64,000 bases of DNA from Candidatus Poseidoniaceae archaeon (GTDB taxonomy: Archaea; Thermoplasmatota; Poseidoniia; Poseidoniales; Poseidoniaceae): positions 8,758 through 72,757 of the forward strand of contig JBMYNT010000001.1 of NCBI GenBank assembly GCA_049598575.1, read 5' to 3'. Each line of letters opens with the position of its first letter. Position 1 is the first letter of the stretch. The position numbers were made by a program, and so were the translations under genes. This document shows, in pieces, positions 1 to 22,695 of this stretch. The notes under the pieces were generated by a model. The model was not told where the DNA came from, ran no database searches, and worked only from the letters and a program-made list of their open reading frames with translations.

Positions 1-50
1 CTTCAAAGGCGACGTTCGATTGTGTGGTCCACAAGGGATGGACTTGGGCA

Positions 51-4678: not shown

Positions 4679-4779
4679 GTAGAGCGATTTATTGTACACT
4701 CCAATGATGCTCTTGGTGAATGTTTATCACCGCGCTTCGAGTCGCAAGCATGTCCATCTAGGGCACCTGAGGGCACATC

Positions 4780-5052: not shown

Positions 5053-5053
5053 G

Positions 5054-8757: not shown

Positions 8758-10953
8758 TCAATACTCCAGAAAATTCGAGAGGATTTTGATACCAGATGGA
8801 CTTCCAACTGATTCAGGATGGAATTGTACACCAAACACAGGTGCTTGGTTCGAGTGCAATCCTAGGACCAGCGATTTTGTATCATCTGTTGCATCAACGA
8901 CGATGGTTGGGTGTGAAAGAAGATCTGCCGTCAGCAATGTCAATGAATTGTACCTCGTCATCGAAACCTCGTTCATATCATCAAACAACCCTTTCTGATC
9001 ATGAATACACTTGACAGGCGTACCATGAACAGGCCCAATTGGACTTGGAACCAATTCGAATCCAGATGCTAACCCAATCGCTTGATGTCCTAAGCAGATG
9101 CCAAGCAGTGGCGGGGTTCGTCCTTGCAGCGATAACGATGCGAAATCCATGGTGAGTTCACTGTCTTGTGGCCAACCGGGACCTGGCCCGAGAATGATGT
9201 GTGATGGTTGCAATTCGTCAATGAGTTGTTGAGCAGATGATTCTAACCTACCCCGCCCAGAAACGATGTTCACATGATGTCCAAGACCACAAATACTGTG
9301 TGCAATGTTGTAAGTGAATGAATCAAGATTATCGATGAGAAGGACTGCATTTTTCTCAAACGTATGTGTGTGTATGGCCGCTTGGGTTGTGTTGTTGCTT
9401 TGATTGCTCTCGAGTGGAAGTGGATGAATGGCTAAACTCTTGACTGGATTGGATGGGGCGGCCTCATCCAACCATCCACACGATCGTAGCAGTGCGTTCG
9501 CTTTCCATTTCGCTTCAGCAACCTCGGATTTTGGATTGGATTCAATCGTAATCCCTCCTCCTGCTGTGACGCGTGAATACCATCCTTCTCCCTCTCTTCG
9601 TAGTTCAGCGGTTCGGATCAGAATGTTCCAAGATGAGCATCCAGTTGATGGGTCGAACCATCCCATCGACCCCGTCCAGAACGATCGTGGCCGTCGCTCC
9701 AATTCATCGATTGCAGCACATACCACTGTTCTTGGACAACCTGTAATCGAACCACCTGGGAACACATTTTCTATGCAATCGAAGACGTCCACATGGTCAT
9801 CCAAATTGCCTTTAATTCGAGAAACGAGATGCTGAACTTCAGCGTAGGCTTCGACATCAAATCGATCAACCCACACTTGGTTTGGTTTGGATATTCGACC
9901 AACATCGTTCCGCATCAAATCAACCAACATTCGATGTTCGGCGCGCTCCTTGCGATCCGAAATCATGTCTTCACGCAGGAGCGATTCTTCAGCATCCGAT
10001 GCTCCTCGAGGGGCTGTCCCTTTGATTGGTGCAGTTGTAATGATTCCTTCGTTCGTAGTAAGGAGTGATTCAGGTGATGCAGATACGAGTGAGAACCCCT
10101 CGTCTTTCATATGGACAAAACCAGAATACGGTGCAGGATTTGACGCAATGGAATGTGAGAAAACTGTCCAAGGTTCGGATTGTATTTCACCTTCCCAGGT
10201 ACGACCGAAGTTTAGCTGGTACAACTGACCATCGACGATTGCAGAATGGACTCTGCGTACAATCTCTTCATGCTCTTCATCCGTGCACGTCGAAGTGGGC
10301 TTTTGACCAAGACGAACAGTAGGAGAGGTATACTCCGGTTGGCCGTTATCGAGGCACACACGTACCTTTGCTTCCCAGCCAGAATCCGTTGAGAGAACAA
10401 TGAGGGAATCGGTGCTCTTCTGATGAACGATGCAGTGATGGATTTCCCATAACACACACAACAACTCACCTTCCTGTGGAAGATGTTGTAATCGAATGGG
10501 TTGGGTGAGTTGCAATAAATCGTAGGAGAGGGCTCCAGTCCAAAATGGACCAACAAAGGGAATCGATTCAGGAATGGTTCCTAGAAAGTCAGAATCGCTT
10601 TTCGAACACAGCTGTCTCAAACCATCTGCTAGGAATGTAGTTGTTGTTGAAGCATCCAACTGCCACTGTGTTCCGTCCCAAACCTCTCGCTCAAACAGGA
10701 ACGGAGCAGAATCAACCAATCTGGTTTCTCCAGAAAGAGGAGAATGTTCCGCCGCAGCCTCGACAACATCTCTTGAGGGTTGTCGGATGAGGACGCGCCG
10801 ACTCGCTGGTCCGCACAAAAAAGAAAATTGCGAAAGGTGGCTTGTTGGGCCTGCTGAGACCAACATGACTTCATCGGGGCCGCCATATTGACCTGCCCTT
10901 TCGCCGAGAAGGTCTTGTTCAATCAAGTGATGACGGATTGGTTCAAGCAACAT
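8758..10953 (-). CDS. Aminodeoxychorismate synthase, fused component I (PabB-like) and glutamine amidotransferase (PabA-like)
   Basis: N-terminal chorismate-binding region (PIKGT...MLVDLMRND...GGSITGCP) followed by a class I GATase (CLGHQ, FHPES). Adjacent pabC favours Pab over Trp. Start trimmed to MLLEPIRHHL (10953) to limit overlap with pabC. Confidence 0.75.
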   Translation of the reverse strand: MLLEPIRHHLIEQDLLGERAGQYGGPDEVMLVSAGPTSHLSQFSFLCGPASRRVLIRQPSRDVVEAAAEHSPLSGETRLVDSAPFLFEREVWDGTQWQLDASTTTTFLADGLRQLCSKSDSDFLGTIPESIPFVGPFWTGALSYDLLQLTQPIRLQHLPQEGELLCVLWEIHHCIVHQKSTDSLIVLSTDSGWEAKVRVCLDNGQPEYTSPTVRLGQKPTSTCTDEEHEEIVRRVHSAIVDGQLYQLNFGRTWEGEIQSEPWTVFSHSIASNPAPYSGFVHMKDEGFSLVSASPESLLTTNEGIITTAPIKGTAPRGASDAEESLLREDMISDRKERAEHRMLVDLMRNDVGRISKPNQVWVDRFDVEAYAEVQHLVSRIKGNLDDHVDVFDCIENVFPGGSITGCPRTVVCAAIDELERRPRSFWTGSMGWFDPSTGCSSWNILIRTAELRREGEGWYSRVTAGGGITIESNPKSEVAEAKWKANALLRSCGWLDEAAPSNPVKSLAIHPLPLESNQSNNTTQAAIHTHTFEKNAVLLIDNLDSFTYNIAHSICGLGHHVNIVSGRGRLESSAQQLIDELQPSHIILGPGPGWPQDSELTMDFASLSLQGRTPPLLGICLGHQAIGLASGFELVPSPIGPVHGTPVKCIHDQKGLFDDMNEVSMTRYNSLTLLTADLLSHPTIVVDATDDTKSLVLGLHSNQAPVFGVQFHPESVGSPSGIKILSNFLEY

Positions 10954-11728
10954 GACTCCAAACCTCCTCCCAATTGCTGGGATTGTTGTAGTTGTTGTCA
11001 AGGATTTTGACACACATATCGAACAAACGAGTACCTCCATCACCAATTGGTTCGTTGTCAATGGAATCAATCTTCAAAACACCAACACCGCTACCAACAG
11101 CAATTGCTTCAACACATCGTGCAACGAGTCGTTCGTTCAAGTTACCTTGTTGAATATGGAATCCTGCTTCAAGAATTGATTCATGCATTGCATTGAATGT
11201 AATCGATGAGACGGAACTGTTTGCATGACTCACCCAAACCACTCCATCCTCATCCAGAACAAGAGGTGTACATCGATCACCATCAACGATGGAGTAGTCG
11301 TGAACCATGAGCGCTAAATCAGCTCCTTTTTGTTCCGCATAATTCCGAGCTTCGGTGTACGCTCCCCATGCACCGTGCTTTGTTCCTGCAACACGTGGGG
11401 GCCAAATTGGGCTTGGAACCGTTATGGCATCGATTGCCTCGTCTTGTATTGTGAACGGCCGATATGCAACACTGAGTTCGGAGTTTTTTGTACATTCGAT
11501 GCGAACGAGACCTTCGGATATCTGAGGAGGATTCTTTTGAAGAAGTTCGAGGAACCCTTCTCGGTTGATATTGCTCTCATCAATCCTCAATTTTGCTGCA
11601 TGCTCAAGCATACGTGCAAGGTGAGATTGGAACAAGAACAGTCCACGCTCTTGAGAGAATCTCATGGTTGTGAACACAGAGGAGCGAGGACTCGGGTTCG
11701 CCTCGCTCATGGCCTGTCCTTGGCACAC
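10943..11728 (-). CDS. Class IV aminotransferase fold protein, probable 4-amino-4-deoxychorismate lyase (PabC)
   Basis: BCAT/PabC-like length and motifs; lies immediately upstream of pabAB on the same strand. Confidence 0.6.
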   Translation of the reverse strand: MCQGQAMSEANPSPRSSVFTTMRFSQERGLFLFQSHLARMLEHAAKLRIDESNINREGFLELLQKNPPQISEGLVRIECTKNSELSVAYRPFTIQDEAIDAITVPSPIWPPRVAGTKHGAWGAYTEARNYAEQKGADLALMVHDYSIVDGDRCTPLVLDEDGVVWVSHANSSVSSITFNAMHESILEAGFHIQQGNLNERLVARCVEAIAVGSGVGVLKIDSIDNEPIGDGGTRLFDMCVKILDNNYNNPSNWEEVWSHVA

Positions 11729-11749
11729 TATGCCTTGAGCATCACGGTA

Positions 11750-14700
11750 TCACAGCAAGTCATCAAGGAAGGATGTGTCAATACCAGATTTCGATGGTTG
11801 TTGAGGCGTTCCAATGTCGAGATCATTCAATAGATCGTTATCGATTGGTGCTCGCACAGGATTCATAACTGGCCTTGGAGCATTGTACTGTTCTCGCCCA
11901 ATGTTCTGCGAATCAATACGTTCTGCTGCTCTGAACAGCGAATCAGCCTGAACCGGCGCTGCAGGTGCAGGAGGGGGTGGAGGAACGTTCGATTGTGGAG
12001 GGGAGTTCCACGAGTCGTCGCTAATACCCCAGGTTGCTGTCTGCAGTTCCCATTCTTTCTCTTTCTGGCTTCGCTTGCCACGTCCACGAACGATGGCAAG
12101 GAGCAGGAACAATGAGACAACAACAAGCCCAGCAGCAAGGAGGTTCGGAGTTGTTAACAGCGATTCGAGGTCGTTTCCAGCATTCGTCTCATCGGTTACT
12201 TTGCCGGATGCATCGACAGCGTTGATCTTCTTGGCATCCACAGTCTTTCGAACCTCGTCATCGTCAAACGTTGTGACTGAGACGAACCAATCGGATGTGT
12301 TCACGAGGTCTGGGAATATTTGTGAGGAGATAACGAACGAGTTCGCAATGGTTTCATCGAGGAACATTGCATCTGAAATGTCCATGAAATCAGTGGAACT
12401 GATGTGGATTTGATACCCTTCAACACTCAAGTCGTTCGAATGGTTCCACGATACGAGAATGTCTCGCTCTTCAACCCAAGCGAGTGTTATACCCTCGATG
12501 CTTGGAAGGTAGTTGCCAGGATCTGTGACATTATCATCAACGGATTGCGCACGAACGACGGTCAAATCGGTCTTGATAGCATTGCCAGATGAATCAACAG
12601 GAACGACGGCTGCCCAAGTCTCTTGGCCTGGAAGAACAGGTAGGTCTCCAGCGAGAATTGTTATCTTGAACGGCAAATCAGGATTACGCTCAAGTGTTGC
12701 AATCGGAGCGTTTGGCCCATCTGCTCCAACACCGACACTCGTAAACGACCAGGAAGCAGCATACACATCGTACTGACTTACATCACCAGCCGAAGAGAGC
12801 TCAAAGTCAAGGAGCAATGCAGAACCGTCATCCATCGGTCGATCTGTGAGGCTCACATTTTCCAATCGAGGCGGAGGCGTTGTATCCTCGAAGTTGTTGA
12901 TTGGCACGACACTTGCAGAGAGCAAATCGTCAGTGTAGACGTTACCTTGCACGTCATGAACAGTGACGGTTACGAACAGTTCAACGCCTGGCTTGATCAG
13001 TTGTGGTGTATCACCTGGACCAAACGAGTCGCTGTTGCCTCCCAATCCGTACAATGCCGTATTCAACGTCAATTCAATCGGATTTTTATCTTCATCAATC
13101 CACTGTTTGTCGATGACGATGCATCCACAAAATGCCGAATCGTCACCGTACAAATTCCAAAGGTAACTGACATCATCCACAGGCTTGTCTGCGGCCCAAA
13201 CGACGTATTGACTGAAATCTCCAGCATCTGAAATCGACCAAACAACGTCGATTGCAGTCCCATCATCGTCTGGATGATCGTATGCTTGGATGCTCTCAAT
13301 TCGCTTTGGTGGCATCGCAACTCCATTTGAATTATCGATTGGTGTTGCAGTTACAATCTCAACATCGTTGAGGTTGCCATTGAGCCAAGTATCGAATGCA
13401 ACAACACCGATGTGGTACTCGAGGCCGTTCACCAACGGGAGATCGTCAAGTTCTGAGACGATGGTTGAATTGTCGTCACAATTGTTGACAACGGTTGATT
13501 CTGAGAAGCCAGCAACCGATGATGGGTCTGTTGTAAAGACGACACCTGTAATCATGTACACGACGTAGAATGCACAGTCATCGGCATCACTTGTATCCCA
13601 GCCAACTGTGATTCGACCACCTTCATCAGCGGGCGTGTCAATGGCCCAAACATTCTGCAATTTTGCCGGAGGAATACCGTCATCGACACCTCCAGTTGGA
13701 ACCACAGGACCAATGATTGTAGCATTCATCATGTCTTCCTGTCCTGTGAGATCAACACAAGTGAATCCAAGCCAATACGGTTTACCTGGTTCGAGATTCA
13801 GAATGGTTGTGTTCCCTTCTGTTGGAAGGACGGAAGCCTCGACAGAGAGGCCTAGAATGTCGGTCATCGATTGTGTCGATGCGTAGATTCTCGTCTCTTG
13901 CAAATCCAATGCGGTACAGCGTGCCCACTCGGTTTCCAAGTCGCCAGCTACACCACCGCTTAGTGGTTGAGCGGTTGCCCATTCTGGTGGCGTTGGGACT
14001 TCATTGCTTGTTGTTACAGGACCGAAGACTTGGCTCGGTAGACCATATCTTCCGTTGTTGTATTCAACAACAACAAGGGCATAGTATTCGACCCCATCGA
14101 CCAATGGAACGCCATTCGCAGTCGTGACATCGGCTTTTAATCGGCTGTGAATTGACTCAGATTTGTCGATGATTCGGCCAACAAGATCGATATCCGTTGG
14201 AAGTGCAGTCCATGGTTGGTCGCTTACGTAAACCAGGTATCGGCTGAAATCAGGATCATGGACCAGAGTCCATTCAACTGTAAGAGCGCCTCCACCGTCA
14301 TCCGGACGATCGTACATGTCCGCAATTTCAACAGGCGTATCCAATCGAACCCAATCGTACGTTAACCGAACCTCAATTGAACCGTTCGTTGGTGAAATCA
14401 ACTTGATTGGTACAAAGCGAGTACCGTTGATGAGTTGTCCATTGTTGATGGCGAGTTGAAGACCATCTTCGACGCCGGTAGTGTTGTCCAATTCAAGGAC
14501 AGTGTCGTACCGTAGTGTGGTCGACTTTGCCCAGACTGCAGCATTCGATACAGGAGAGGTCATAATGAGCGGTACCGTTTGGAATAGGAGCCCATGAACG
14601 CCTGGTTGTCCAATCGAGCTGTTCAAGGAAACAGGAGCGTCTGGAGTAACCAGATCGATGCTAAACCCGGGATGGGTCATGTTGGTGATATCCATGTATT

Positions 14701-17700
14701 CCGAATTGAAGCCAATGTTGAGTGGATTTGCATAACGAGAGGTTTGACTCTCCATCTCGTCGAAGGCGGTTGCCGGCGTCCATCCGCGTAGTCCGGCATC
14801 GCTGGTCGTTAGCCAGAACCCGTTTGAACCGACAGCAACGTTGGTTGGATTTTGTACAATAGCCGACTTGACACTTGAGTGGGATGCAGTGTGCGCTTCA
14901 ACGATGGTCATCGCGTTCAATCCCATCACCATGAGATGCATTCCATCGCTGCTCATCCTGTAAATCGGCCATGATGAGATTTGTGAACTCGACAAACCGT
15001 CTTCAAATTCGTTCGACAACCCATCGTAGTGAATCAATGGTCCAACATCGGTTGCAATGTGCAATCCTGCATAATCGGATGCGACGGCAGTGATGTAATT
15101 GGAGGGGAGTTGATCAAATCGGTGCGTTGAAACAACGCCGTTTGAAGATGAATCAACCATCGACACACCTGGGCGTTCTGAGCCAGCACCATCGTGTCCG
15201 AGGACAAGTTGCACAGCTTGGTTTGCGCTTGGAGGAGAATACGTTTCAATCGACCATACGGAGTTTCCAAGCAAACCATCAGCGCTTGTGTTTGTTGTGA
15301 TTGCCCCCGTGGTAGGGATGTATTGTGTCAGACCACTGCCAGATGCGATGTAGAGTGTGTTTGAAATGAACTTGATATCTTCAATGTTCGAAGATGGTAA
15401 GCCATCTGCAGTGGTAAGCGGGTTGTCCCAATCGTTTGCAGACATGTTCCAGCGACCAATTCCGTTTTGAGTAGCAACGTAGACGTGGTCATTTGACACA
15501 GCAAAACCTTGGATGTTATCGGAAGGGAGTCCGGAAAGCAACTGTCCTGCACCGAACTGCTGTGTAGCAACATCGAACGCTTGCACACCAGCGGCAGTGG
15601 AGAAGGTTCCCAGCAAACCGACGTAGAGGGTTGAAACCCCACTGACTTGATGCATAGCCAATCCTCCAAGACTGTTGTGAATGGATCCTGTTTGACGTTG
15701 GAGCGTTCCAGTCGTCGTATCCAAGACGTAGAGACCATTCCCTGATGTAGAGATGTAGATGGTTGTTCCATCCATGAGCATGTCACCAATGGTTGTTGAG
15801 AATGGGAACGACCAGCCTTCCTCCCAATCGATGCCACCGTTTGAGTTAAACGAACCTTGGAGAATGCCTGCTGTTCCTTGCCCTCCTCCGTTTCCACCGC
15901 CCCCAAAGGAGGATTCTGTACCAACCCAAATCTTCGAACCGTCCGAAACCAAGGAAGGAATGTTGCCACTGACAAGCGCTGGAAGTTCGAATGCAGTGTA
16001 CAGCCCAGATGTGCCCAATTTGTCGACGCGCGAGTAACCACTCGCCTCACCTGCTTGTCCAATCAACCATTCCGTTCCTGTATGCTTAACGGATGTAACC
16101 GGTGTGCCTACCCGCTGAACACTTGCCTGTCCTGTAATTGTTCCTCGAGTTGAAATGATGGCAAATCCGCCTGAATCATCGTACCCAATCATGAGTTTAC
16201 CATTTGAGAAATCCATTGCATCAAGCCAAACAGGATCTGTCGGAAGTCCATTGGATGCAGAGGTGATCTTTGCTAGCCACGTTCCGGATACAGTATCGTA
16301 CTTGGAAATACCTTGATTGTCCGCATCGTAACCAACGTAGAGCGTATCAACAGCATCACAAGCGACAGAGGCGACACGTCCACTGCTCAAGACAGACGTT
16401 GTGAATGAACCAATGACCGAAGAGGTGTTCAAATCCATGTACATGACACCACCATTGTTGTTGAACAATCCGATATAGAGATACGAGCCACATGTGCTCA
16501 TGGAGAGGGGGTATCCGTTTGGCACACCGTTTTGACCAGTGTTGAACGTTGACCATGTTCCACTCGAGCCATCAAGATGGCCGACAACTCCACGTTGGAA
16601 TCCGCCCCAACCTGCAAAGGTTGCAGATCCGACAACGAGGTGTGTTCCATCCGTCCAAAGCTCACCAACCCAATCGCCCATGTTGTTTGGTAATCCGTTT
16701 CCAGGTGTCCATGTCGATTCCCACGAGAAGGAGGTCTCGTTAAACCGCTCAACTCCATCTTCTGTCGCGAAAAGAATGAGTCCATCGTATTCGATGATCT
16801 CTCGAATTGGAAATTCAAGGTTATCCCAGGTTCCAAGTTTGGTTCCGCTCGAACTGTAGACTTCGAGTGCAATTTCGCCCCAAGAAATCCACGTGTTTCC
16901 GCTTGAAGATTCGAACGCAGTCACCCGATCGACTTGACCAGACGGCAGGACATTTGTGCCCCAAGTACTCGTCGATAGGTTGTATTGGGCAATCCCTCCG
17001 CTTCCATCTTGATTCCACCATTGGCCGGAAACGACGCTTGCAAGGAGCATGTCCCCAACGATGTTCAATCCAGCAATGTCGCCTCCATTTTCTCCGACAC
17101 GTTGGCCTGCATCGAGTGGTGTAATCGAGGTGAAGTTTGCCACATCGATTCCGTAAATGCTGTCGCTTGAGGTGCCTTGATGGTAGTACATGGTGAATCC
17201 ATACATTGTCAAGTCGAACGGATCGCCGTTCCCACTGTACAACGAATTTGATTTCTCAATATCGTAAAATTCCGTTCCATTGGCGGTTCCAATCAACTGG
17301 AAACCATCTTGTCCACCAACCCAAATGTAACCTGGTCGAATGTCAGCGATGAGGCTCGTGACAATCTCGTTTCCATTGTCGAGGACATTGTCCTCAGTCC
17401 ATGTTGTCAACCACTCGCTGTTTGTGATGTCCCAGCGAGCCACACCAATTCCAGTGAGTCCAATGTAAGCAACATCATCGATGACTTCGACGATAGCGTC
17501 CGAGGTCGATGCGGTCGCTTCCCATTCGTCATCAACAGTGAAACTGCTTTTGTCAATGAGGCCCACACCGCTGAAGGTTCCACCAAAGACCGTAGTGCTG
17601 TTCACGCCTACAACGTATGTTGCCCAGTTCGGCATGCCGTCGTAAACGTTGAGACAATCATCGATGGCTCCGTTGCTTGGTGAGTAACGACAAACACCGA

Positions 17701-20032
17701 TGTTTGTTCCGGAATACATCCAGTTACCATCGTACTCGAAGTCAAAGTGTTGCGAAGGGCGACGCGTCCAATCGCTTCCTGAAGTGGTGAGTTGGCTCAT
17801 CGAAGAACCGTCCCAGATATATCCACCGAGTTGCGTTCCAATCCAAAGATCGTTTCCGTTCACTTCCAATGCGTAAATGGTGTTGGACGTCATTATGCTG
17901 TTTTGGGATGTGATCGGTGTGAGAATCTCTCCAGTAGAGAGGTCCTTTCGAGCAACACCGTACCCGGCAAGACCCATGTGAAGAACGTCGCCAACGACGG
18001 CAACGGGGGCATTGTCGACACCATTGACGCCGGTTGATCCCCATGCTGCAAGGAACGTGTTGTTTGCAATATCGTAGCGAAGAAGGCCTTCATCGGACGA
18101 CCAGTATCCTACACCAGCGTAGGTTGCAACCTGTCCGGTTAGCAGGGTATTGGATGTGAGCTGGGTTGCTGAACCAACAGCGGTTGAATCTACATCGGCT
18201 CTGAACGCAGAGTATTCTTGAACAAAGAGGATTTGACAACCCGCTGTGGTCGTACAATCACCGACTGCTGCAATATCCACAATGTATTCTGAGCTCGCAT
18301 CTTGATTCGCTCCGGGAGGAATGTTGGTCCGAATCGAGCCGTTCTCGATAAGGAACAACCCGTCTTCAAGCGTACCTGCGATGATGGTGTCTCCAGTTGC
18401 TGCCAAGGATGTGACTGGATTGCCGATGTCAATTGGCGTGAGCCAAACAGAGGAAGCAATATCGAGGCGATCGACTGTTTCTGAGAAATACCCTGCTACG
18501 TAGAGGATACCGTTGTGTTCGAGTGCATCGGTGAGTGCAGCATCGGATGGGCCACTTGCGAGAACAATTTCCCGAGTTACGGTACTCTGCATACTCGCAT
18601 CAATCAGAACGATACGACCGCCATCTGTTGCAACATGCATCATCGATGAAGGTGCACGTTCCCCGTTAGCTTCCCAGGCGAACAAGGCATTGAACCCAGA
18701 TTCAGTGAGGTTGACGTTGTTGAGTGGGATGGATGATCCAAAGACACCCGTCGTGAGGTTGTAACGGAGCAGTTGATCACCGCTCATGATGTGAAGCGTG
18801 TCTTGATGCGATTGGATTCCCGAAACAACGTTGGATGGCAGCCAATTTGCATCGCTCCATGTTGCTAGCCAAAAACCAGAATTCCAGTTGTATCGTGCAA
18901 GTCCGCTGTCACTTGAAGCGAAGAGAAGTTGATTACCAGCGGATTCCATTTTCGTGACATCGTTGCTGTGGAGGACGTTGGCAGAACTCCAAGTGGAAAG
19001 AGGTTGATTGTTGTTCAAATCGTAGCGTCCAACACCGTTATCGGTTGCTGCATACAAGATTCCACTCTGTTCGTGCAGGTCGTTGACTCGTGTCGATAGA
19101 GGCCAGCTGTTCGAGGTCGCTGAAACAACCTGACTCCACGTGTTGGAAGCGTCAAGTTGGAGCAGTGTTCCATCACTTGTCATGACGTAGATGCCCGATG
19201 GAAGCACTTCAAACAGCCCAATTTCAAAGCCAGCATCTGGTAGGCCATCGCTTACTGTACCGTCGCTTTGCGAAATCAGTTTGAACATACCATCTGCGAA
19301 GGCAACGTGGATATTTCCACTCGGCCCAATAGCAATGCTTACAATCTCAGAATTGAGGTCGCTGAAGTCGTAAAGATCGATGATAGCAGCGTCGTTGTTC
19401 GCATCGAGAACGAGAATGGACGTGCTGCCCTGCAGGTAGAGTTGCCCATCGCTTGTATGTTGAACTGCATTGTAAAGAGGAATGCTCACAGGTGCGAACG
19501 ATGTAATTGGGTCTACTGGTGCTAGGGCTTCAAAGGCTAGTTCTGTGATGTCTGCATCCGAGGGCAAGGTCCAACCTGCGCCGGAGGCGCTGTTTGGAGA
19601 GAGTCGGTCTGAGTAAGGATTTGCTCCATCGAAAGAATCGGATGCGCCTAGGGTCCCAAGCCCTCTCCAATCGAAGAGATTGATGCCGATGTCGTTGGCG
19701 ACAAGAAGAGGCTCGTTGATCATGAGACCGTTGGAACCATTTACATGGATTTGGAGTGAAACGTTCGAAATCTCTGCACCTGGAGCGAATTCGAGAACCC
19801 AATCTGCTGTTGCTTGACTGGAGAGAATTGGGTCATTGCCCACGATTGCGTCCAACTGAATCCAACCAGTGTCGTTGGAACCAGAAAGAGGCCATGAGAC
19901 TACATCGTCCGTTTCGTGAGCAGATGCAATCGGTACACCTGCGAGCACAACAGACCATGATGCAAGAAGCATCAACAAGGTCAAAAAGAGGGCCTTTTTT
20001 GGTCCTCGACGGTCGGCATAGCGGTTGCTCAT
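11750..20032 (-). CDS. Giant type-I membrane surface protein (2760 aa): signal peptide, about 20 Reg_prop-like beta-propeller blades, 5-6 Fn3-like modules, TM anchor, Pro-rich cytoplasmic tail
   Basis: N-terminal KKALFLTLLMLLASWSVVLA...ASAHE signal peptide. Recurrent W[IV]G[TG]xxG[LVI]xR[YW][DN] blades. Repeated DxPxDDGxA[LI]xVxW...Y.V[YW] modules near the C-terminus. Hydrophobic LLAAGLVVVSLFLLLAIV anchor followed by RGRGKR and a PPPPPAPAAP tail. Confidence 0.85.
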   Translation of the reverse strand: MSNRYADRRGPKKALFLTLLMLLASWSVVLAGVPIASAHETDDVVSWPLSGSNDTGWIQLDAIVGNDPILSSQATADWVLEFAPGAEISNVSLQIHVNGSNGLMINEPLLVANDIGINLFDWRGLGTLGASDSFDGANPYSDRLSPNSASGAGWTLPSDADITELAFEALAPVDPITSFAPVSIPLYNAVQHTSDGQLYLQGSTSILVLDANNDAAIIDLYDFSDLNSEIVSIAIGPSGNIHVAFADGMFKLISQSDGTVSDGLPDAGFEIGLFEVLPSGIYVMTSDGTLLQLDASNTWSQVVSATSNSWPLSTRVNDLHEQSGILYAATDNGVGRYDLNNNQPLSTWSSANVLHSNDVTKMESAGNQLLFASSDSGLARYNWNSGFWLATWSDANWLPSNVVSGIQSHQDTLHIMSGDQLLRYNLTTGVFGSSIPLNNVNLTESGFNALFAWEANGERAPSSMMHVATDGGRIVLIDASMQSTVTREIVLASGPSDAALTDALEHNGILYVAGYFSETVDRLDIASSVWLTPIDIGNPVTSLAATGDTIIAGTLEDGLFLIENGSIRTNIPPGANQDASSEYIVDIAAVGDCTTTAGCQILFVQEYSAFRADVDSTAVGSATQLTSNTLLTGQVATYAGVGYWSSDEGLLRYDIANNTFLAAWGSTGVNGVDNAPVAVVGDVLHMGLAGYGVARKDLSTGEILTPITSQNSIMTSNTIYALEVNGNDLWIGTQLGGYIWDGSSMSQLTTSGSDWTRRPSQHFDFEYDGNWMYSGTNIGVCRYSPSNGAIDDCLNVYDGMPNWATYVVGVNSTTVFGGTFSGVGLIDKSSFTVDDEWEATASTSDAIVEVIDDVAYIGLTGIGVARWDITNSEWLTTWTEDNVLDNGNEIVTSLIADIRPGYIWVGGQDGFQLIGTANGTEFYDIEKSNSLYSGNGDPFDLTMYGFTMYYHQGTSSDSIYGIDVANFTSITPLDAGQRVGENGGDIAGLNIVGDMLLASVVSGQWWNQDGSGGIAQYNLSTSTWGTNVLPSGQVDRVTAFESSSGNTWISWGEIALEVYSSSGTKLGTWDNLEFPIREIIEYDGLILFATEDGVERFNETSFSWESTWTPGNGLPNNMGDWVGELWTDGTHLVVGSATFAGWGGFQRGVVGHLDGSSGTWSTFNTGQNGVPNGYPLSMSTCGSYLYIGLFNNNGGVMYMDLNTSSVIGSFTTSVLSSGRVASVACDAVDTLYVGYDADNQGISKYDTVSGTWLAKITSASNGLPTDPVWLDAMDFSNGKLMIGYDDSGGFAIISTRGTITGQASVQRVGTPVTSVKHTGTEWLIGQAGEASGYSRVDKLGTSGLYTAFELPALVSGNIPSLVSDGSKIWVGTESSFGGGGNGGGQGTAGILQGSFNSNGGIDWEEGWSFPFSTTIGDMLMDGTTIYISTSGNGLYVLDTTTGTLQRQTGSIHNSLGGLAMHQVSGVSTLYVGLLGTFSTAAGVQAFDVATQQFGAGQLLSGLPSDNIQGFAVSNDHVYVATQNGIGRWNMSANDWDNPLTTADGLPSSNIEDIKFISNTLYIASGSGLTQYIPTTGAITTNTSADGLLGNSVWSIETYSPPSANQAVQLVLGHDGAGSERPGVSMVDSSSNGVVSTHRFDQLPSNYITAVASDYAGLHIATDVGPLIHYDGLSNEFEDGLSSSQISSWPIYRMSSDGMHLMVMGLNAMTIVEAHTASHSSVKSAIVQNPTNVAVGSNGFWLTTSDAGLRGWTPATAFDEMESQTSRYANPLNIGFNSEYMDITNMTHPGFSIDLVTPDAPVSLNSSIGQPGVHGLLFQTVPLIMTSPVSNAAVWAKSTTLRYDTVLELDNTTGVEDGLQLAINNGQLINGTRFVPIKLISPTNGSIEVRLTYDWVRLDTPVEIADMYDRPDDGGGALTVEWTLVHDPDFSRYLVYVSDQPWTALPTDIDLVGRIIDKSESIHSRLKADVTTANGVPLVDGVEYYALVVVEYNNGRYGLPSQVFGPVTTSNEVPTPPEWATAQPLSGGVAGDLETEWARCTALDLQETRIYASTQSMTDILGLSVEASVLPTEGNTTILNLEPGKPYWLGFTCVDLTGQEDMMNATIIGPVVPTGGVDDGIPPAKLQNVWAIDTPADEGGRITVGWDTSDADDCAFYVVYMITGVVFTTDPSSVAGFSESTVVNNCDDNSTIVSELDDLPLVNGLEYHIGVVAFDTWLNGNLNDVEIVTATPIDNSNGVAMPPKRIESIQAYDHPDDDGTAIDVVWSISDAGDFSQYVVWAADKPVDDVSYLWNLYGDDSAFCGCIVIDKQWIDEDKNPIELTLNTALYGLGGNSDSFGPGDTPQLIKPGVELFVTVTVHDVQGNVYTDDLLSASVVPINNFEDTTPPPRLENVSLTDRPMDDGSALLLDFELSSAGDVSQYDVYAASWSFTSVGVGADGPNAPIATLERNPDLPFKITILAGDLPVLPGQETWAAVVPVDSSGNAIKTDLTVVRAQSVDDNVTDPGNYLPSIEGITLAWVEERDILVSWNHSNDLSVEGYQIHISSTDFMDISDAMFLDETIANSFVISSQIFPDLVNTSDWFVSVTTFDDDEVRKTVDAKKINAVDASGKVTDETNAGNDLESLLTTPNLLAAGLVVVSLFLLLAIVRGRGKRSQKEKEWELQTATWGISDDSWNSPPQSNVPPPPPAPAAPVQADSLFRAAERIDSQNIGREQYNAPRPVMNPVRAPIDNDLLNDLDIGTPQQPSKSGIDTSFLDDLL
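12143..14360 (-). repeat. Tandem Fn3-like modules (about 6 copies, each 110-145 aa) in the giant protein; boundaries approximate (+/-30 nt)
   Basis: Each module contains D-[RHT]-P-x-D-D-G-x-A-[LI]-x-[VL]-x-W and a downstream S/D...Y-x-V-[YW] element. Confidence 0.5.
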
Positions 20033-20056
20033 ATCGATGATGCAATCACTTCAGTA

Positions 20057-20062
20057 CATAAA
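20057..20062 (-). promoter_or_regulatory. TATA-like box (TTTATG) at -25..-30 of the giant gene ATG
   Basis: Spacing fits an archaeal leaderless promoter in the 58-bp spacer after pyk. Confidence 0.3.
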
Positions 20063-20090
20063 GGCCCTGTGTCGTTGATAGAACAAAGCA

Positions 20091-21560
20091 TCATTCCAAA
20101 TCGGACAATTCGCCTTGCTCATTGATGAAAAGCAGTCGAATGGTCGAGGTTCTTCCCGAGATAGCTTTGGGCGATCCTGAAATAGCAACAATCGTGTCAT
20201 GGGGGCGAATCTTCTTCATGTCATACAACTGCTTGACTGCTTCAGCAACGGTTGAACGAGCACGCGATTGTTCCTCAACAATGAGTGACTCGACTCCTGG
20301 AAGAATCGTTGTACGCCGAGCAGCGCGAATACGATTCGTCATTGCGTAGATGGGGATTCGAGGCCGGTGCGCCGCCATTAGTCGTGCTGCGTTACCATGT
20401 TCTGTACCAACGATGAGATGCTTTGCATCGGTTTCTCGTGCGATTTCGATCGCAGCACCGGCAATCACACGAGTGGATACATAGGCAGCCAATGCAGGGG
20501 GATCGGGCAATCCCTTGGTCGATTGTTCAACAGTTTCAGCAATACGAGCCATCGTTTCAACAGCTTTGACAGGATGCTGACCACTTGCAGTTTCACCGGA
20601 CAACATCACAGCGCTAACGTGCTGACGGATGGCTGTTGCAACGTCTGTAACCTCTGCTCGCGTGGGCCGGGCATGATTGACCATGCTTTCCAACATCTGC
20701 GTTGCAACAACAACAGGCGTTCCACGTTCGAGGCATGCAGAAACGATTCGTTCTTGTGCAGCAGGGACCTCTTCGAGTGGAATCTCAACGCCCAAATCTC
20801 CGCGAGCGACCATGACCACATCAGCAGATTCGACAATAGCAGTGAGATCCTCAAGCGCAGCTGGATGTTCGATTTTTGCTACAATCCACGTGTGGACGCC
20901 TGCGGCCTCAATGCGTTCACGGGCTGGAATCAAATCTGCAGCACTTCGAACATACGAAACGGCAACAAAATCAACGTTCTGCGAGAGCGCATGGTCGAGA
21001 CAATCCAAGTCGTGTGGACCTACTGCAGGTAGTTTCACCAGTGTCCGTGGGACATTGATGCCTTTTCGTTCGGTGAGAATGCCACCGTCTTCAACTCGAC
21101 ATCGAACGATTTCACCCTCAAAATCTGGTGCAGTGAGGACTTCTAGACGAATCAGCCCATCCGAGAGCAGGACAGGATCTCCTTTTTGCAAATCCTTTGA
21201 CAATCCCTCCCATTCGACGGGTAGGGTTTTGACCATCTCGCCCAGTATGGTGGTGCTTTGAGGAGGCAAACCTTGAGCATAGCCACAGTGAAGGTCAACG
21301 AGTTCTCCCCGCAACAATTCGACTTCACCTTCGAAACGCCCCAAGCGGAGTTTTGGACCAGGCAAATCTGCGAGCAATCCGATGTATGTGCCTGATTTTG
21401 TCTCTGCTTCTCGAATGTTCTGAATCGTTCGTTCTTTACCTTCGAAATCGCCATGAGAGTAGTTGAGTCGTGCAATGTTCATTCCCGCATTCATCATTTC
21501 TGCGAGCGTTTCAATATGATCGCTGGCTGGACCAATTGTGGCAATAATTCGAGAGCGCAT
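20091..21560 (-). CDS. pyk: Pyruvate kinase
   Basis: MRSRIIATIGPAS...NIARLNYSHG N-terminus and full-length barrel, lid and C-terminal domains. Confidence 0.9.
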   Translation of the reverse strand: MRSRIIATIGPASDHIETLAEMMNAGMNIARLNYSHGDFEGKERTIQNIREAETKSGTYIGLLADLPGPKLRLGRFEGEVELLRGELVDLHCGYAQGLPPQSTTILGEMVKTLPVEWEGLSKDLQKGDPVLLSDGLIRLEVLTAPDFEGEIVRCRVEDGGILTERKGINVPRTLVKLPAVGPHDLDCLDHALSQNVDFVAVSYVRSAADLIPARERIEAAGVHTWIVAKIEHPAALEDLTAIVESADVVMVARGDLGVEIPLEEVPAAQERIVSACLERGTPVVVATQMLESMVNHARPTRAEVTDVATAIRQHVSAVMLSGETASGQHPVKAVETMARIAETVEQSTKGLPDPPALAAYVSTRVIAGAAIEIARETDAKHLIVGTEHGNAARLMAAHRPRIPIYAMTNRIRAARRTTILPGVESLIVEEQSRARSTVAEAVKQLYDMKKIRPHDTIVAISGSPKAISGRTSTIRLLFINEQGELSDLE

Positions 21561-21708: not shown

Positions 21709-22695
21709 TCAATCCGGCGAGTCATCTTTGACGAACTCGCGCAGGAACTCCCACGCAATGGCTGTGATGTCCAAGCCCGTTGGGTTGCCTTTCAGAGTGG
21801 CCTCATTGAAGGGGCCGTCGGCACCTTCGTAGTCGTTGAGGTAGGGGTTATGCTGAGCGAGATTCAATGTGTACAACACGGCTTGTGAACCGTCCTCGCA
21901 CTCTGTGAATTTCTTGATTGAGTGGTCTGATTCCACCGTCTCAAAGTCGGGCACCAGCCCAGAGCATCCGTTGGCGTCAGCCCAATAGTAGAGGTTCTGG
22001 ATGGCGCCCTCGTCCCCTTCTAATGTACCTGCGACTTGAAAAGATGCGGTTGAAGAATGGCCGTAGAGCACGCCTGGATCCAAAAATCCATGGAATTCCA
22101 TGACGGGAATGGGTGAGTAGTCGCCCGACTTCGGCTCTACGGTGTAGCCGGCCATGCATGCGATAGCGGTGATTTTGTGGCTGGCCACCATCGCCATTTC
22201 TTGGCTCATAAAACAGCCGTTGCTCCATCCGCTCAAGTACACGCGACTCGCATCAGCCGATCTGTTTTCGACCATGAAATCGATTAAGGTGAGCAGGAAG
22301 CCGACGTCGTTTTCCTCACCACAGCACCAGCCAAAATTCCATCCAAGATCGATACCTTCAGGGTGCACGAGAATCGTATGGTCCACATCTGTGACGCGGG
22401 CAAAATCTGAGAGGTTGTTCTGCAGTTCGGCGGTCACGTGCCGCCCGTGCATGTCGATGAGCAGGGGGCACGAATGTTCCTTGCAAAACTCGAGGGAAGT
22501 GTTTGCAGGAACATGGACGAACCAGCATCGTTCAATGTCATCAAACTCGAAACACTCTCGCGCGTCCTCGGGTTCGGAGGCAAACATCTCATCATCTGCT
22601 GCCGGTGCAACTTCCACCGATTCAGAAAGACAACCGCTCATGGCGGCCATGAGCAACAAGAGTGGGCACAACGCAGCAAGAATCTGTGTCCTCAT
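21709..22695 (-). CDS. Secreted lipoprotein, esterase/PHB-depolymerase-like alpha/beta hydrolase
   Basis: Signal peptide with an AMSGC lipobox-like site and a GWSNG nucleophile elbow. Confidence 0.55.
   Translation of the reverse strand: MRTQILAALCPLLLLMAAMSGCLSESVEVAPAADDEMFASEPEDARECFEFDDIERCWFVHVPANTSLEFCKEHSCPLLIDMHGRHVTAELQNNLSDFARVTDVDHTILVHPEGIDLGWNFGWCCGEENDVGFLLTLIDFMVENRSADASRVYLSGWSNGCFMSQEMAMVASHKITAIACMAGYTVEPKSGDYSPIPVMEFHGFLDPGVLYGHSSTASFQVAGTLEGDEGAIQNLYYWADANGCSGLVPDFETVESDHSIKKFTECEDGSQAVLYTLNLAQHNPYLNDYEGADGPFNEATLKGNPTGLDITAIAWEFLREFVKDDSPD

What the first reader, a model, noticed from the sequence alone, without database searches (positions are those of the whole stretch)
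11750..20032. 2760-aa beta-propeller/Fn3 type-I surface protein with a Pro-rich cytoplasmic tail, in line with pyk and pab genes
This single ORF takes up 8.3 kb. It has a signal peptide, about 20 repeats of the two-component-regulator-propeller type (W[IV]G[TG]xxG[LVI]xR[YW][DN]), then about six Fn3-like modules each carrying DxPxDDGxA[LI]xVxW, one TM helix and a 112-aa cytoplasmic tail with a PPPPPAPAAP tract. Unlike S-layer glycoproteins or halomucin-type secreted giants, it is a true type-I membrane protein with a structured intracellular tail, which suggests outside-in coupling (adhesion or sensing). It lies on the same strand, with 58-, 21- and overlapping spacers, as pyk upstream and pabC-pabAB downstream. 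That is an unusual operonic context for a surface giant. A TATA-like box at -25..-30 indicates it also has its own promoter.
Basis: partly seen in the sequence, partly recalled or inferred. Interest (0 to 1): 0.6.

Follow-up and report, generated by a model that had tools for sequence, protein, structure and literature searches.

The report
Conserved giant surface protein, MGII archaea
The 8.3-kb gene is real and encodes a 294-kDa membrane-anchored surface protein (tandem beta-propellers on a stalk of six fibronectin-like modules) that is kept, at almost constant length, in both families of the abundant but uncultured Marine Group II archaea, and whose function nobody has yet described.

Summary
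The ORF (window 11750..20032, minus strand, 2760 aa) is intact. It has a signal peptide, one TM helix and a 112-aa cytoplasmic tail. AlphaFold2 and fold and profile searches show about 34 beta-propeller blades (roughly five seven-bladed propellers). By sequence profile these are closest to Bacteroides hybrid-two-component sensor propellers. Six Fn3 modules follow.

Only 4 of the 6 Fn3 modules carry the DxPxDDG motif. The tail is predicted disordered, not structured.

New here: the protein is an ortholog family spanning the order Poseidoniales, found in 273 species-representative genomes. Identity falls to 27% in Thalassarchaeaceae while length stays at 2726-2863 aa. It is under purifying selection (dN/dS about 0.04), and a C-terminal peptide (I-D-T-S-F-L-D-D-L-L) is kept even where the rest of the tail is unalignable.

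A TATA-like box at -30..-23 is conserved whatever gene lies upstream, so the gene has its own promoter. pabC follows at 9 nt, with a GAGG formed by the stop codon, across most Poseidoniaceae, so co-transcription is likely. That linkage is absent in MGIIb, so a functional tie to pab is unlikely.

Best reading: a constitutive stalked ligand-binding envelope protein, docked inside the cell by its C-terminal peptide. An S-layer role remains a serious rival. No paper describing it was found.

The parts
20055..20062 (-). TATA-like box TTTATGTA, -30..-23 from the start codon. It implies a dedicated promoter and a leaderless or near-leaderless mRNA.
   Evidence: Sequence read. The same position holds TTTATGTA in the loci at about 80% identity or more, and TTCAAATA in the 72% clade. 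TTCAAATA also appears in clades where the divergent malic-enzyme gene lies upstream (L002, L083, L086, L068). The transcription start itself was not mapped.
11750..20032 (-). Complete coding sequence of the giant protein: 2760 aa plus stop, 294 kDa, pI about 4.05.
   Evidence: Full-length orthologs of 2726-2863 aa.
19919..20032 (-). Signal peptide region (aa 1-38): basic n-region RRGPKK, h-region, then ...PIASA|HE.
   Evidence: Hydropathy scan. The cleavage site is inferred from the sequence, not predicted with a dedicated tool.
19487..19918 (-). Conserved N-terminal domain of unknown fold (aa 39-182). This is the most constrained part of the protein.
   Evidence: Column conservation 0.64-0.77. 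dN/dS 0.02. The invariant sequon N90 lies here. AF2 pLDDT is below 50 for most of it. No Pfam or PDB-profile hit.
14768..19486 (-). Tandem beta-propeller region (aa 183-1755): about 34 four-stranded blades, enough for about five seven-bladed propellers.
14333..14767 (-). Linker or unknown domain between the propellers and the stalk (aa 1756-1900).
   Evidence: AF2 pLDDT 40-68, with one helix. Conserved sequons at N1869 and N1883. No family hit.
12218..14332 (-). Six tandem Fn3-type beta-sandwich modules (approx. aa 1901-2010, 2015-2112, 2125-2232, 2243-2378, 2390-2500, 2513-2605). Modules 1, 3, 4 and 5 start with DxPxD[DEG]G.
   Evidence: AF2 pLDDT 80-92. Foldseek matches leptin receptor, gp130, fibronectin and contactin at E 5e-17 to 1e-9. 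Motif positions. PF00041 passes its cut-off in ortholog P0017 at the sixth module and in bacterial proteins sharing the motif-bearing modules.
12089..12145 (-). Single transmembrane helix (aa 2630-2648), preceded by the conserved SLLTTPNL and followed by RGRGKR (positive-inside).
   Evidence: AF2 predicts one long helix, aa 2628-2667.
11753..12088 (-). 112-aa cytoplasmic tail. It runs: juxtamembrane W-E-L-Q-x-A-T-W-G, a Pro-rich variable linker, Y-x-x-x-x-P-V-x-x-P, then the C-terminal peptide.
   Evidence: AF2 pLDDT 30-40. Conservation pattern.
11753..11782 (-). C-terminal peptide I-D-T-S-F-L-D-D-L-L-COOH (aa 2751-2760), a putative docking motif for a cytoplasmic partner.
   Evidence: Invariant or nearly so in 121 Poseidoniaceae orthologs. 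Recognisable as D[TMV][SG]F[LI]DD[LV][LF] in most orthologs at 27-40% identity, and degenerate in P0127 (SLIDDLL) and P0130 (GLVDDLF), while the rest of the tail is unalignable. No other ORF in the window ends this way.
11728..11749 (-). Invariant 22-nt non-coding element TACCGTGATGCTCAAGGCATAG between the giant gene's stop and pabC. Function unknown.
   Evidence: Identical, or with one or two substitutions, in 18 loci of 72-98% identity, although neighbouring synonymous sites are saturated. Unique in the window. No significant RNA fold.
10943..11710 (-). pabC-like class-IV aminotransferase, probably co-transcribed. The start is revised to the conserved ATG at 11710.
   Evidence: PF01063. Start revision. 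Its position immediately downstream of the giant gene is conserved across Poseidoniaceae.
8758..11070 (-). pabAB-like fusion (chorismate-binding plus GATase). This is the maximal ORF; the true start is probably further downstream.
   Evidence: PF00425 + PF00117. The best NCBIfam hits are PabB models, all below their cut-offs. Orthologs are 679-734 aa.
20091..21560 (-). Pyruvate kinase upstream. An adjacent neighbour, probably a separate transcript.
   Evidence: PF00224 + PF02887. Adjacency is present in the clade at 72% identity or more, in L068, and in a 30%-identity ortholog (L092). It is absent from most Poseidoniaceae and from MGIIb.

Best explanation
This is the Poseidoniales-wide (Marine Group II) ortholog of a roughly 290-kDa, acidic, probably N-glycosylated type-I membrane protein of the cell envelope.

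Shown:
- A signal peptide.
- A conserved N-terminal cap domain of unknown fold.
- About 34 propeller blades (about five seven-bladed propellers) whose only significant sequence relatives among solved structures are the glycan-sensing periplasmic propellers of Bacteroides hybrid two-component systems.
- Six Fn3 modules, one TM helix, and a disordered 112-aa tail ending in a conserved acidic-hydrophobic peptide.

Inferred mechanism:
- The six Fn3 modules form a stalk about 20 nm long (at roughly 3.5 nm per module) that holds the propeller head above the membrane.
- The head binds a conserved, probably carbohydrate-type ligand. This could be environmental polymer or particle material, or the cell's own surface glycans.
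- The tail docks the molecule to an unidentified cytoplasmic partner through short linear motifs, above all the C-terminal ...DTSFLDDLL peptide. The coupling across the membrane would then be mechanical or positional rather than enzymatic signalling.
- The gene is expressed from its own TATA-box promoter as a leaderless mRNA.
- In Poseidoniaceae the transcript probably continues into pabC-pabAB. This reflects inherited gene order, not shared function.
For: - Intact ORF and topology.
- Fn3 stalk.
- Order-wide orthology with fixed length. 273 species-representative genomes carry it. There are 13 full-length cluster representatives at 50% identity. The Thalassarchaeaceae ortholog aligns over nearly the whole length (query aa 12-2700) at 27% identity.
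- Few indels.
- Purifying selection everywhere: dN/dS about 0.04 overall and 0.02 in the N-terminal cap, against 0.02 for pyk and 0.01 for the malic enzyme. This argues for a conserved ligand or partner, not an arms-race surface.
- Twelve sequon positions are conserved in at least 60% of orthologs, and two are invariant.
- The tail is disordered but keeps its motifs, including the C-terminal peptide at 27-40% identity.
- Promoter footprint.
- Stop-GG-N7-ATG junction with pabC.
- Both characterised relatives of this propeller type (HTCS sensors, PorZ) bind glycans. This is established knowledge of PDB 4A2L/4A2M and 5M11, not tested here.
Against: - No ligand, partner, abundance or localisation data exist. 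The organisms are uncultured, and I found no paper on this protein.
- Fold alone does not separate these propellers from WD40 propellers. The window protein itself fails the Reg_prop and fn3 Pfam cut-offs.
- The N-terminal cap, which is the likeliest binding or contact surface, could not be modelled.
- Universal presence, constant length and uniform constraint fit a structural lattice protein at least as well as a receptor or adhesin.
- The propeller count rests on strand counting, and 322 aa were not modelled.
Confidence: 0.45

Rival explanations
1. It is the S-layer (or main glycocalyx) protein of Marine Group II archaea. The Fn3 stalk would be the pillar that sets a pseudo-periplasmic space, and the propeller head plus N-terminal cap would form the lattice canopy.
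For: - It is present in 273 species-representative genomes and in both families, usually as one locus per genome (one MAG, SI072_bin89, has two), at nearly constant length with very few indels. This is what a geometry-constrained lattice subunit would show.
- Purifying selection is uniform, and the distal cap is the most conserved part.
- The protein is acidic, with positionally conserved sequons.
- It has its own TATA promoter.
- No S-layer protein has been reported for this order in the literature I could search.
- From memory, not tested: wall-less Thermoplasma carries a major large membrane glycoprotein.
Against: - Codon usage is unexceptional (ENC 50.2 against 40.0 for icd in the same window).
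- Sequons are not enriched overall (27 against 29 +/- 5 expected).
- Tight linkage, and probably translational coupling, to the low-demand pab genes is odd for a very highly expressed gene.
- The 112-aa tail with a conserved C-terminal peptide has no counterpart in known S-layer anchors. There is no PGF-CTERM or archaeosortase-type end.
- There is no evidence of self-assembly.
Confidence: 0.27
2. It is a true outside-in sensor. It would be an archaeal analogue of hybrid two-component sensors in which ligand binding to the propellers changes the oligomeric state, and the tail motifs then recruit a soluble kinase, regulator or GTPase.
For: - The ectodomain order (propellers, then beta-sandwich, then TM) mirrors HTCS periplasmic domains (4A2L, 3OTT, 3VA6, 3V9F).
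- The conserved juxtamembrane helix and C-terminal peptide suggest a cytoplasmic binding partner.
Against: - There is no kinase, receiver, HTH or any other Pfam domain in the tail.
- No signalling gene is conserved next to it. The neighbours are malic enzyme, pyk and pab genes in MGIIa, and beta-oxidation genes in MGIIb.
- A head of about five propellers and a 20-nm stalk is far larger than any known sensor domain.
- Sensors are rarely universal and fixed in length across an order.
Confidence: 0.13
3. The giant protein is functionally tied to its neighbours, with pyk, pabC and pabAB forming a metabolic or envelope operon (for example surface capture feeding central or folate metabolism).
For: - All lie on the same strand with short spacers.
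- The giant-pabC-pabAB order is conserved across Poseidoniaceae, with a 9-nt coupled junction.
- pyk-giant adjacency is also seen in a 30%-identity ortholog.
Against: - The MGIIb ortholog has neither pyk nor pab beside it.
- The 30%-identity ortholog lacks pabC.
- Most Poseidoniaceae lack pyk there.
- A conserved promoter element separates pyk from the giant gene.
- No biochemical logic links folate-precursor synthesis to a surface protein.
Confidence: 0.03
4. It is an assembly or annotation artefact, or a decaying pseudogene built from repeats.
For: None found. It is considered only because the ORF is very long and repetitive.
Against: - The ORF is uninterrupted.
- Collinear orthologs of the same length occur on hundreds of independent contigs.
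- dN/dS is about 0.04.
- The AF2 domains are confident.
Confidence: 0.01

Closest known systems
Periplasmic sensor domains of Bacteroides hybrid two-component systems (BT4663, PDB 4A2L/4A2M; BT4673, 3OTT/3VA6; BT3049, 3V9F): Reg_prop propellers plus a Y_Y_Y beta-sandwich
   Same: - They are the only solved structures that family sequence profiles hit significantly, in two separate regions (E=1e-8 and 8e-8).
- Same order of parts: tandem seven-bladed propellers, then a beta-sandwich, then a TM helix.
   Different: - About five propellers rather than two.
- Six Fn3 modules rather than one Y_Y_Y domain.
- No histidine kinase, receiver or AraC output; only a 112-aa disordered tail.
- Archaeal rather than Bacteroidota.
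- Identity is only 10-13%.
PorZ of the Porphyromonas type IX secretion system (PDB 5M11)
   Same: A surface protein with two Reg_prop-type propellers. There are sub-threshold PF21544 hits and a Foldseek E of 2e-19. It is a glycan-binding surface component.
   Different: PorZ is a bacterial outer-membrane-associated protein with a T9SS C-terminal domain. It has no TM helix, no Fn3 stalk and no cytoplasmic tail.
Eukaryotic stalked propeller receptors (ROS1/Sevenless; LRP2/megalin)
   Same: The overall design matches: several beta-propellers plus Fn3 (or EGF) modules, a single TM helix, and a cytoplasmic part that works through short motifs or a domain. They are among the top Foldseek hits (9CWM, 9OZI, 9BFP).
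   Different: There is no detectable sequence relationship. The propellers are YWTD six-bladed in LRP2, and ROS1 carries a kinase domain. This is an analogy of architecture, not membership.
Archaeal S-layer glycoproteins with C-terminal anchors (e.g. the Haloferax volcanii PGF-CTERM type)
   Same: Sec signal peptide, acidic ectodomain built of beta-sandwich modules, conserved sequons, and a C-terminal membrane anchor.
   Different: - No PGF-CTERM or archaeosortase signal.
- The TM helix is followed by a 112-aa tail.
- A propeller head of about 1570 aa.
- Sequons are not enriched.
- Lattice formation is unknown.
Bacterial giant repeat proteins carrying the same DxPxDDG-type Fn3 modules (e.g. 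Nitrospirota MDH5527574.1, 3882 aa; an 'Ig-like domain-containing protein' of 5960 aa)
   Same: They match profile positions about 400-730 (the motif-bearing Fn3 modules) in up to 19 stretches per protein, with E down to 1e-74. Pfam calls these modules fn3.
   Different: They share only the module type. Length and repeat number vary, and they lack the propeller head, the collinearity and the tail peptide.

Membership tests
Reg_prop (PF07494) two-component-regulator propeller repeats | A repeat HMM match at or above the Pfam gathering score (20.4 bits). | tested here: inconclusive
   The window protein scores 17.7 and 17.0 bits in two segments, below the cut-off, and nothing in the whole-protein scan. 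Ortholog P0003 scores 24.8 bits, above the cut-off. The MGIIb ortholog has a 'faint' Reg_prop hit.
Reg_prop / HTCS-type propeller domain | Seven-bladed propeller fold with specific sequence similarity to solved HTCS sensor domains. | tested here: met
Hybrid two-component system sensors (HTCS) | Cytoplasmic histidine kinase, receiver and AraC-type output domains after the TM helix. | tested here: not met
   The tail is 112 aa with no Pfam or NCBIfam domain, and is predicted disordered.
Fibronectin type III (PF00041) | An HMM match at or above the gathering score (25 bits), and the Fn3 beta-sandwich fold. | tested here: inconclusive
   The window protein has no fn3 hit at E<=1. Ortholog P0017 scores 29.6 bits at the sixth module. 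Fold: six modules at pLDDT 80-92 matching tandem Fn3 structures, E 5e-17. The profile hits contactin Fn3 at E=0.024. So the fold criterion is met, and the sequence criterion is met only in orthologs.
Archaeal S-layer glycoprotein, archaeosortase (PGF-CTERM) type | A PGF (or related) motif, a TM helix and a short basic stretch at the extreme C-terminus. | tested here: not met
   There is no NCBIfam sorting-signal hit. The sequence before the TM is SLLTTPNL, and the TM is followed by 112 residues.
Archaeal S-layer proteins in general | Self-assembly into a 2-D lattice covering the cell, and very high abundance. | not testable with these tools
   Only indirect evidence is available. Codon usage is ordinary. 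Against that stand universal presence and fixed length.
Secreted giant mucin-like proteins (halomucin type) | No membrane anchor, and a highly repetitive, length-variable sequence. | tested here: not met
   There is one TM helix plus a tail. Length stays at 2726-2863 aa with few indels over 27-98% identity.
T9SS PorZ family (PF21544) | An HMM match at or above 27 bits, and a T9SS C-terminal sorting domain. | tested here: not met
   The scores are 19, 16.2 and 21.7 bits, all below the cut-off. The host is an archaeon, and the C-terminus is a TM helix plus tail.

The most novel reading that the evidence does not exclude
The conserved tail makes this an integrin-like transmembrane link in a wall-less archaeon. 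The C-terminal peptide (G)IDTSF-LDDLL resembles, in composition, the archaeal FtsZ C-terminal peptide that docks into SepF (LDDFI plus a GID motif; PMC8178401). The envelope giant could therefore be tethered to the division or cytoskeletal machinery (SepF, or another reader of FtsZ- or CetZ-type tails). That would position or pattern the surface coat from inside, or report surface attachment to the cytoskeleton. This rests only on a compositional resemblance. The order of the two elements is reversed, and no Poseidoniales FtsZ or SepF was examined.
Probability: 0.06. Interest if true: 0.85.

Novelty: new variant of a known kind. Interest (0 to 1): 0.55.

Why it matters
Marine Group II archaea are among the most abundant archaea in the surface ocean and have never been cultured, so nothing is known about their cell envelope. 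A 290-kDa surface protein that is present in both families and evolves under strong constraint is a prime candidate for several roles:
- the main envelope or coat component;
- the contact point with particles, phytoplankton and viruses;
- a conserved extracellular epitope for antibody-based sorting or enrichment of these cells.

The conserved C-terminal cytoplasmic peptide gives a concrete handle (a 10-residue bait) for finding the first known inside-outside link in this lineage.

The result also corrects public annotation. The family is labelled 'hypothetical protein' almost everywhere, is mislabelled once as a pseudopilin, and is present on contigs binned into bacterial MAGs.

Tried and rejected
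I replaced it with a relaxed regex and a self-trained blade HMM. That HMM is derived from the family, so it shows internal repetition, not membership.
- Whole-protein and segment scans against Pfam and NCBIfam gave essentially nothing above cut-off.
- The sigma-70 promoter and intrinsic-terminator scan does not apply to archaea and was at background level.
I solved this by putting the window segment first, followed by 12-13 exact locus segments and 21-22 full-length database proteins.
- The afdb50 fold library was unavailable.
- Codon-usage test for very high expression: the giant gene is not an outlier.
- Overall N-glycosylation sequon enrichment: none. Positional conservation of sequons does exist.
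- Search for other ORFs ending in the tail peptide, or for an ftsZ gene, in the window and all fetched loci: none.
- Relatives on IMG/VR viral contigs: none.
- RNA structure in the giant-pabC spacer: not significant (z=0.38).
- My dN/dS figures for pabAB are a reading-frame artefact of the coordinates I chose and must be ignored.
- dS is near or beyond saturation for all but the closest pair, so the omega values are rough.
- Literature: four MGII genome or ecology papers, plus three full-text searches for MGII/Poseidoniales with S-layer, adhesion or surface-protein terms. None describes this protein. Iverson et al. 2012, whose genome (CM001443.1) carries an ortholog (L079), could not be read here.
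Full report
**1. The observation**

The ORF listing gives a single ATG-to-stop ORF at 11750..20032 on the minus strand, 2760 aa, with no interruption. A Kyte-Doolittle scan finds only two hydrophobic segments.
- The first is aa 12-38, behind a basic RRGPKK. This is the signal peptide.
- The second is NLLAAGLVVVSLFLLLAIV, aa 2630-2648, followed by RGRGKRSQKEKE.
- That leaves a 112-aa tail (aa 2649-2760) containing PPPPPAPAAP.

The protein is 294 kDa and acidic, with 330 D+E against 102 K+R and a pI of about 4.05.
- pyk lies at 20091..21560, 58 nt upstream.
- A class-IV aminotransferase (pabC-like) and a chorismate-binding + GATase fusion (pabAB-like) lie downstream on the same strand.

Three details in the finding are wrong.
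- The literal consensus W[IV]G[TG]xxG[LVI]xR[YW][DN] matches nowhere. A relaxed core, G[LVIA]x[RK][YWF][DN], matches 7 times.
- Only four Fn3 modules carry DxPxD[DEG]G (aa 1908, 2132, 2252, 2397).
- The '21-nt' spacer depends on a GTG that relatives close with in-frame stops. The conserved pabC start is the ATG at 11710, which makes the spacer 39 nt.

**2. What the domains are**

Pfam and NCBIfam say almost nothing about the window protein. The only hits are PorZ_N at 19 bits and two Reg_prop hits at 17.7 and 17.0 bits, below the 20.4 cut-off. I therefore used structure prediction on two 1200-aa windows with 34-row alignments.

Model 1 covers aa 39-1238 and has a mean pLDDT of 75.5.
- aa 39-182 are not predictable (pLDDT below 50).
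- From aa 188 onwards the chain is all-beta at pLDDT 80-90. It has about 93 strands, which is about 23 four-stranded blades.

Model 2 covers aa 1561-2760 and has a mean pLDDT of 72.4.
- It starts with about 4.5 further blades (to aa 1755).
- A low-confidence stretch follows (aa 1756-1900).
- Then come six beta-sandwich modules at pLDDT 80-92 (aa 1901-2605).
- One long helix spans aa 2628-2667, covering the TM segment and the juxtamembrane region.
- The tail follows at pLDDT 30-40.

Fold searches confirm the propellers.
- Foldseek places model 1 on multi-propeller proteins: LRP2/megalin, the BT4663/BT4673/BT3049 sensor domains, PorZ, ROS1 and DDB1, at E 1e-22 to 1e-17.

Fold alone therefore says 'seven-bladed propeller'. 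Sequence profiles are more specific.
- A family profile of aa 39-1238 hits only BT4663 (4A2L) convincingly (E=1e-8), plus weak WD40 hits.
- A profile of the unmodelled aa 1239-1560 hits 4A2L again (E=8e-8), and BT4673 at E=0.006.
- Ortholog P0003 passes the Reg_prop cut-off.

Counting the unmodelled 322 aa at about 45 aa per blade gives about 34 blades, enough for five seven-bladed propellers. The number of propellers is an inference, because I could not inspect coordinates.

Model 2 matches chains of Fn3 domains: leptin receptor, gp130, fibronectin and contactin, at E 5e-17 and weaker.
- PF00041 passes its cut-off in ortholog P0017 at the sixth module.
- It also passes in bacterial giant proteins that share the motif-bearing modules.

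**3. The family**

The search for homologous proteins returned 194 relatives. The 120 listed are all full length (2739-2831 aa, 45-98% identity). Where they are named, they come from Poseidoniaceae/'Poseidonia', and nearly all are labelled hypothetical.
- A scan of one genome per GTDB species found relatives in 273 genomes. These include the original MG-II assembly CM001443.1.
- The 121-sequence alignment has very few indels.
- A profile search of 1.84 billion cluster representatives found 13 full-length representatives of 2726-2863 aa.
- One of them belongs to Candidatus Thalassarchaeaceae (MGIIb), accession MDP6906489.1.
- BLASTP aligns the window protein to these over nearly its whole length at 27-41% identity.

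So this is an order-wide family, usually one locus per genome, with a fixed architecture.

Selection is purifying throughout (Nei-Gojobori, my script). dS is near saturation, so the values are rough.
- Overall dN/dS is about 0.04, against 0.02 for pyk and 0.01 for the malic enzyme in the same genome pairs.
- It is 0.02 in the N-terminal cap and 0.06-0.10 in the tail.
- No region looks like an arms-race surface.

Other observations on the family:
- Twelve N-x-S/T positions are conserved in at least 60% of orthologs, and N90 and N2074 in all 121. The total number of sequons is not above chance.
- No relative occurs on IMG/VR viral contigs.

**4. The tail**

The tail is not 'structured'. It is a disordered, proline-rich, length-variable linker carrying short conserved motifs.
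- SLLTTPNL lies just outside the membrane.
- W-E-L-Q-E-A-T-W-G-I follows the basic stop-transfer residues and is part of the long predicted helix.
- Y-x-x-x-Q-P-V-x-x-P lies further along.
- The extreme C-terminus is I-D-T-S-F-L-D-D-L-L.

At 27-40% overall identity the rest of the tail can no longer be aligned. Most orthologs still end in VDTSFLDDLF, LDMSFLDDLL, LDMGFLDDLL, ADTSFIDDLL or IDVSFLDDVL, and two keep only a degenerate version (P0127 ...SLIDDLL, P0130 ...GLVDDLF). No other ORF in the window or in the fetched loci ends this way.

A terminal acidic-hydrophobic peptide kept for this long on a disordered tail is the signature of a docking motif for a cytoplasmic partner. The partner is unknown.

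**5. Genomic context and expression signals**

In nearly all fetched Poseidoniaceae loci that extend far enough (the MG-II assembly locus L079 is one exception), the order is malic enzyme (divergent), then the giant gene, pabC-like and pabAB-like.

pyk sits between the malic enzyme gene and the giant gene in three places only, so that adjacency is old but patchy.
- The clade at 72% identity or more.
- Locus L068.
- A 30%-identity ortholog, L092.

The MGIIb ortholog lies among beta-oxidation genes with neither neighbour.

Promoter evidence:
- In every clade whose start is unambiguous, an octamer sits at -32..-23 from the ATG.
- It reads TTTATGTA in the window's close relatives and TTCAAATA elsewhere.
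- It is there whether pyk or the divergent malic-enzyme gene lies upstream.
- This phylogenetic footprint supports a dedicated archaeal TATA-box promoter and a leaderless mRNA. The inference rests on the usual spacing of about 26 nt between TATA box and start.

Downstream junction:
- Six Poseidoniaceae loci outside the window's clade read TGA-GG-N7-ATG at the giant-pabC junction. The stop codon plus GG forms a GAGG Shine-Dalgarno-like motif 9 nt before pabC. That is typical of a translationally coupled internal operon gene.
- In the window's clade the spacer is 39 nt. It holds an invariant 22-nt element (TACCGTGATGCTCAAGGCATAG, 11728..11749), then AAGGA and the ATG.
- That element is unique in the window and has no significant fold. 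I cannot explain it.

Co-transcription of the giant gene with pabC-pabAB is therefore likely in Poseidoniaceae. Because the linkage is absent in MGIIb, it does not indicate shared function.

**6. Mechanism**

Shown: topology, domain types and order, conservation pattern, promoter footprint.

Inferred:
- The six Fn3 modules act as a stalk of about 20 nm holding a head of about five propellers plus a conserved cap.
- Both characterised relatives of this propeller type (HTCS sensors, PorZ) bind glycans, so the head most likely binds a carbohydrate-type ligand or the cell's own surface glycans.
- The tail peptide docks a cytoplasmic partner.

I rate this 'stalked ligand-binding envelope protein with inside docking' at 0.45.

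The main rival, at 0.27, is an S-layer or coat protein.
- For it: presence across the order, constant length and uniform constraint fit a lattice subunit, and no S-layer protein is known for the order.
- Against it: ordinary codon usage (ENC 50.2, against 40.0 for icd in the same window), no sequon enrichment, coupling to low-demand pab genes, and a long tail that no known S-layer anchor has.

A signalling sensor (0.13) lacks any output domain or conserved signalling neighbour. A functional operon with pyk and pab (0.03) and an artefact (0.01) are effectively excluded.

**7. Comparison with known families**

By sequence and fold, the nearest relative is the periplasmic domain of Bacteroides hybrid two-component systems. 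Membership of that family fails on the defining cytoplasmic kinase, receiver and AraC modules.

By design it resembles eukaryotic stalked propeller receptors (ROS1/Sevenless, LRP2), with no sequence relationship.

It is not a PGF-CTERM S-layer glycoprotein, not a halomucin-type secreted giant, and not a T9SS PorZ. Its motif-bearing Fn3 modules recur in bacterial giant proteins, such as a 3882-aa Nitrospirota protein.

**8. Novelty and verdict**

The parts are known folds. Four things appear to be undescribed, since I found no paper on them.
- The fixed, order-wide architecture.
- The N-terminal cap of unknown fold.
- The conserved C-terminal cytoplasmic peptide.
- The tight promoter and operon signals.

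I class it as a new variant of a known kind and score interest at 0.55. That is higher than an ordinary adhesin, because the host lineage is globally abundant and uncultured and nothing is known of its envelope. It stays limited because function remains inferred.

The most novel reading not excluded is that the LDDLL-type C-terminal peptide mimics the FtsZ C-terminal peptide read by archaeal SepF (LDDFI/GID; PMC8178401). That would tie the surface coat to the division machinery. I put this at about 6%.

Noticed in passing
window 21709..22695 (- strand): A 328-aa ORF with a lipoprotein-type signal (LLLMAAMSGC) and a PHB-depolymerase-family esterase domain (NCBIfam NF050058 E=4e-22, below cut-off; TIGR01840). 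Its GC3 is 0.64, against 0.38-0.54 in neighbouring genes. It is absent from the closest relatives (L006, L019, L020), where the malic-pyk gap is about 155 nt. It looks like a strain-specific insertion of about 1.1 kb.
   Followed up: partly
window 11728..11749 (- strand): An invariant 22-nt non-coding element, TACCGTGATGCTCAAGGCATAG, directly after the giant gene's stop codon. It is conserved across loci of 72-98% identity although nearby synonymous sites are saturated. It is unique in the window and has no significant RNA fold. Function unknown.
   Followed up: partly
window 11708..11728 (- strand): The GTG start that the ORF listing gives for the pabC-like gene (11728) is closed by in-frame stop codons in relatives. 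The conserved start is ATGAGCGAGG at 11710, preceded by an AAGGA Shine-Dalgarno-like motif.
   Followed up: yes
window 32024..35413 (+) and 44702..48007 (+): Two further large ORFs (1129 and 1101 aa) with no Pfam or NCBIfam hit at E<=0.001.
   Followed up: no
window 20075..20086 (- strand); same position in L003-L090: A conserved T-rich motif, TTGTTCTATCAA, starts a few nt after the pyk stop codon in all loci of the pyk clade. It may be an archaeal oligo-T terminator or a regulatory site just upstream of the giant gene's TATA box.
   Followed up: no
L010 and L024, about 3727..6000: These two close relatives (92-94% identity) carry about 2.3 kb of extra DNA between pyk and the giant gene, where the window has 58 nt.
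   Followed up: no
L005 (CALDQY010000302.1) and L029 (CAXQWT010000040.1): Contigs deposited in MAGs named 'Rhodobiaceae bacterium' and 'Salipiger bermudensis' carry this archaeal gene together with the archaeal pab (and, in L029, malic and pyk) neighbours. These look like binning contaminants in public MAGs.
   Followed up: partly
L025 and L032 (both from MAG SI072_bin89): One MAG has two full-length copies on two contigs (48-49% identity to the query). This is either a mixed bin or a rare duplication.
   Followed up: no
window 5054..7024 (+) and 7043..8317 (+); L001 and L002 downstream regions: A protein of about 656 aa with C-terminal EF-hands and a YchF/OLA1-type GTPase lie convergent to pabAB. 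The same pair is found at the same place in relatives at 46-49% identity.
   Followed up: no
P0099: One source (JGI) names an ortholog 'type II secretory pathway pseudopilin PulG'. This is probably an annotation error triggered by the hydrophobic N-terminus.
   Followed up: no
window 36075..37310 (- strand): The isocitrate/isopropylmalate dehydrogenase gene has much stronger codon bias (ENC 40.0) than all other long genes in the window (46-56). Translational selection therefore does act in this genome.
   Followed up: no
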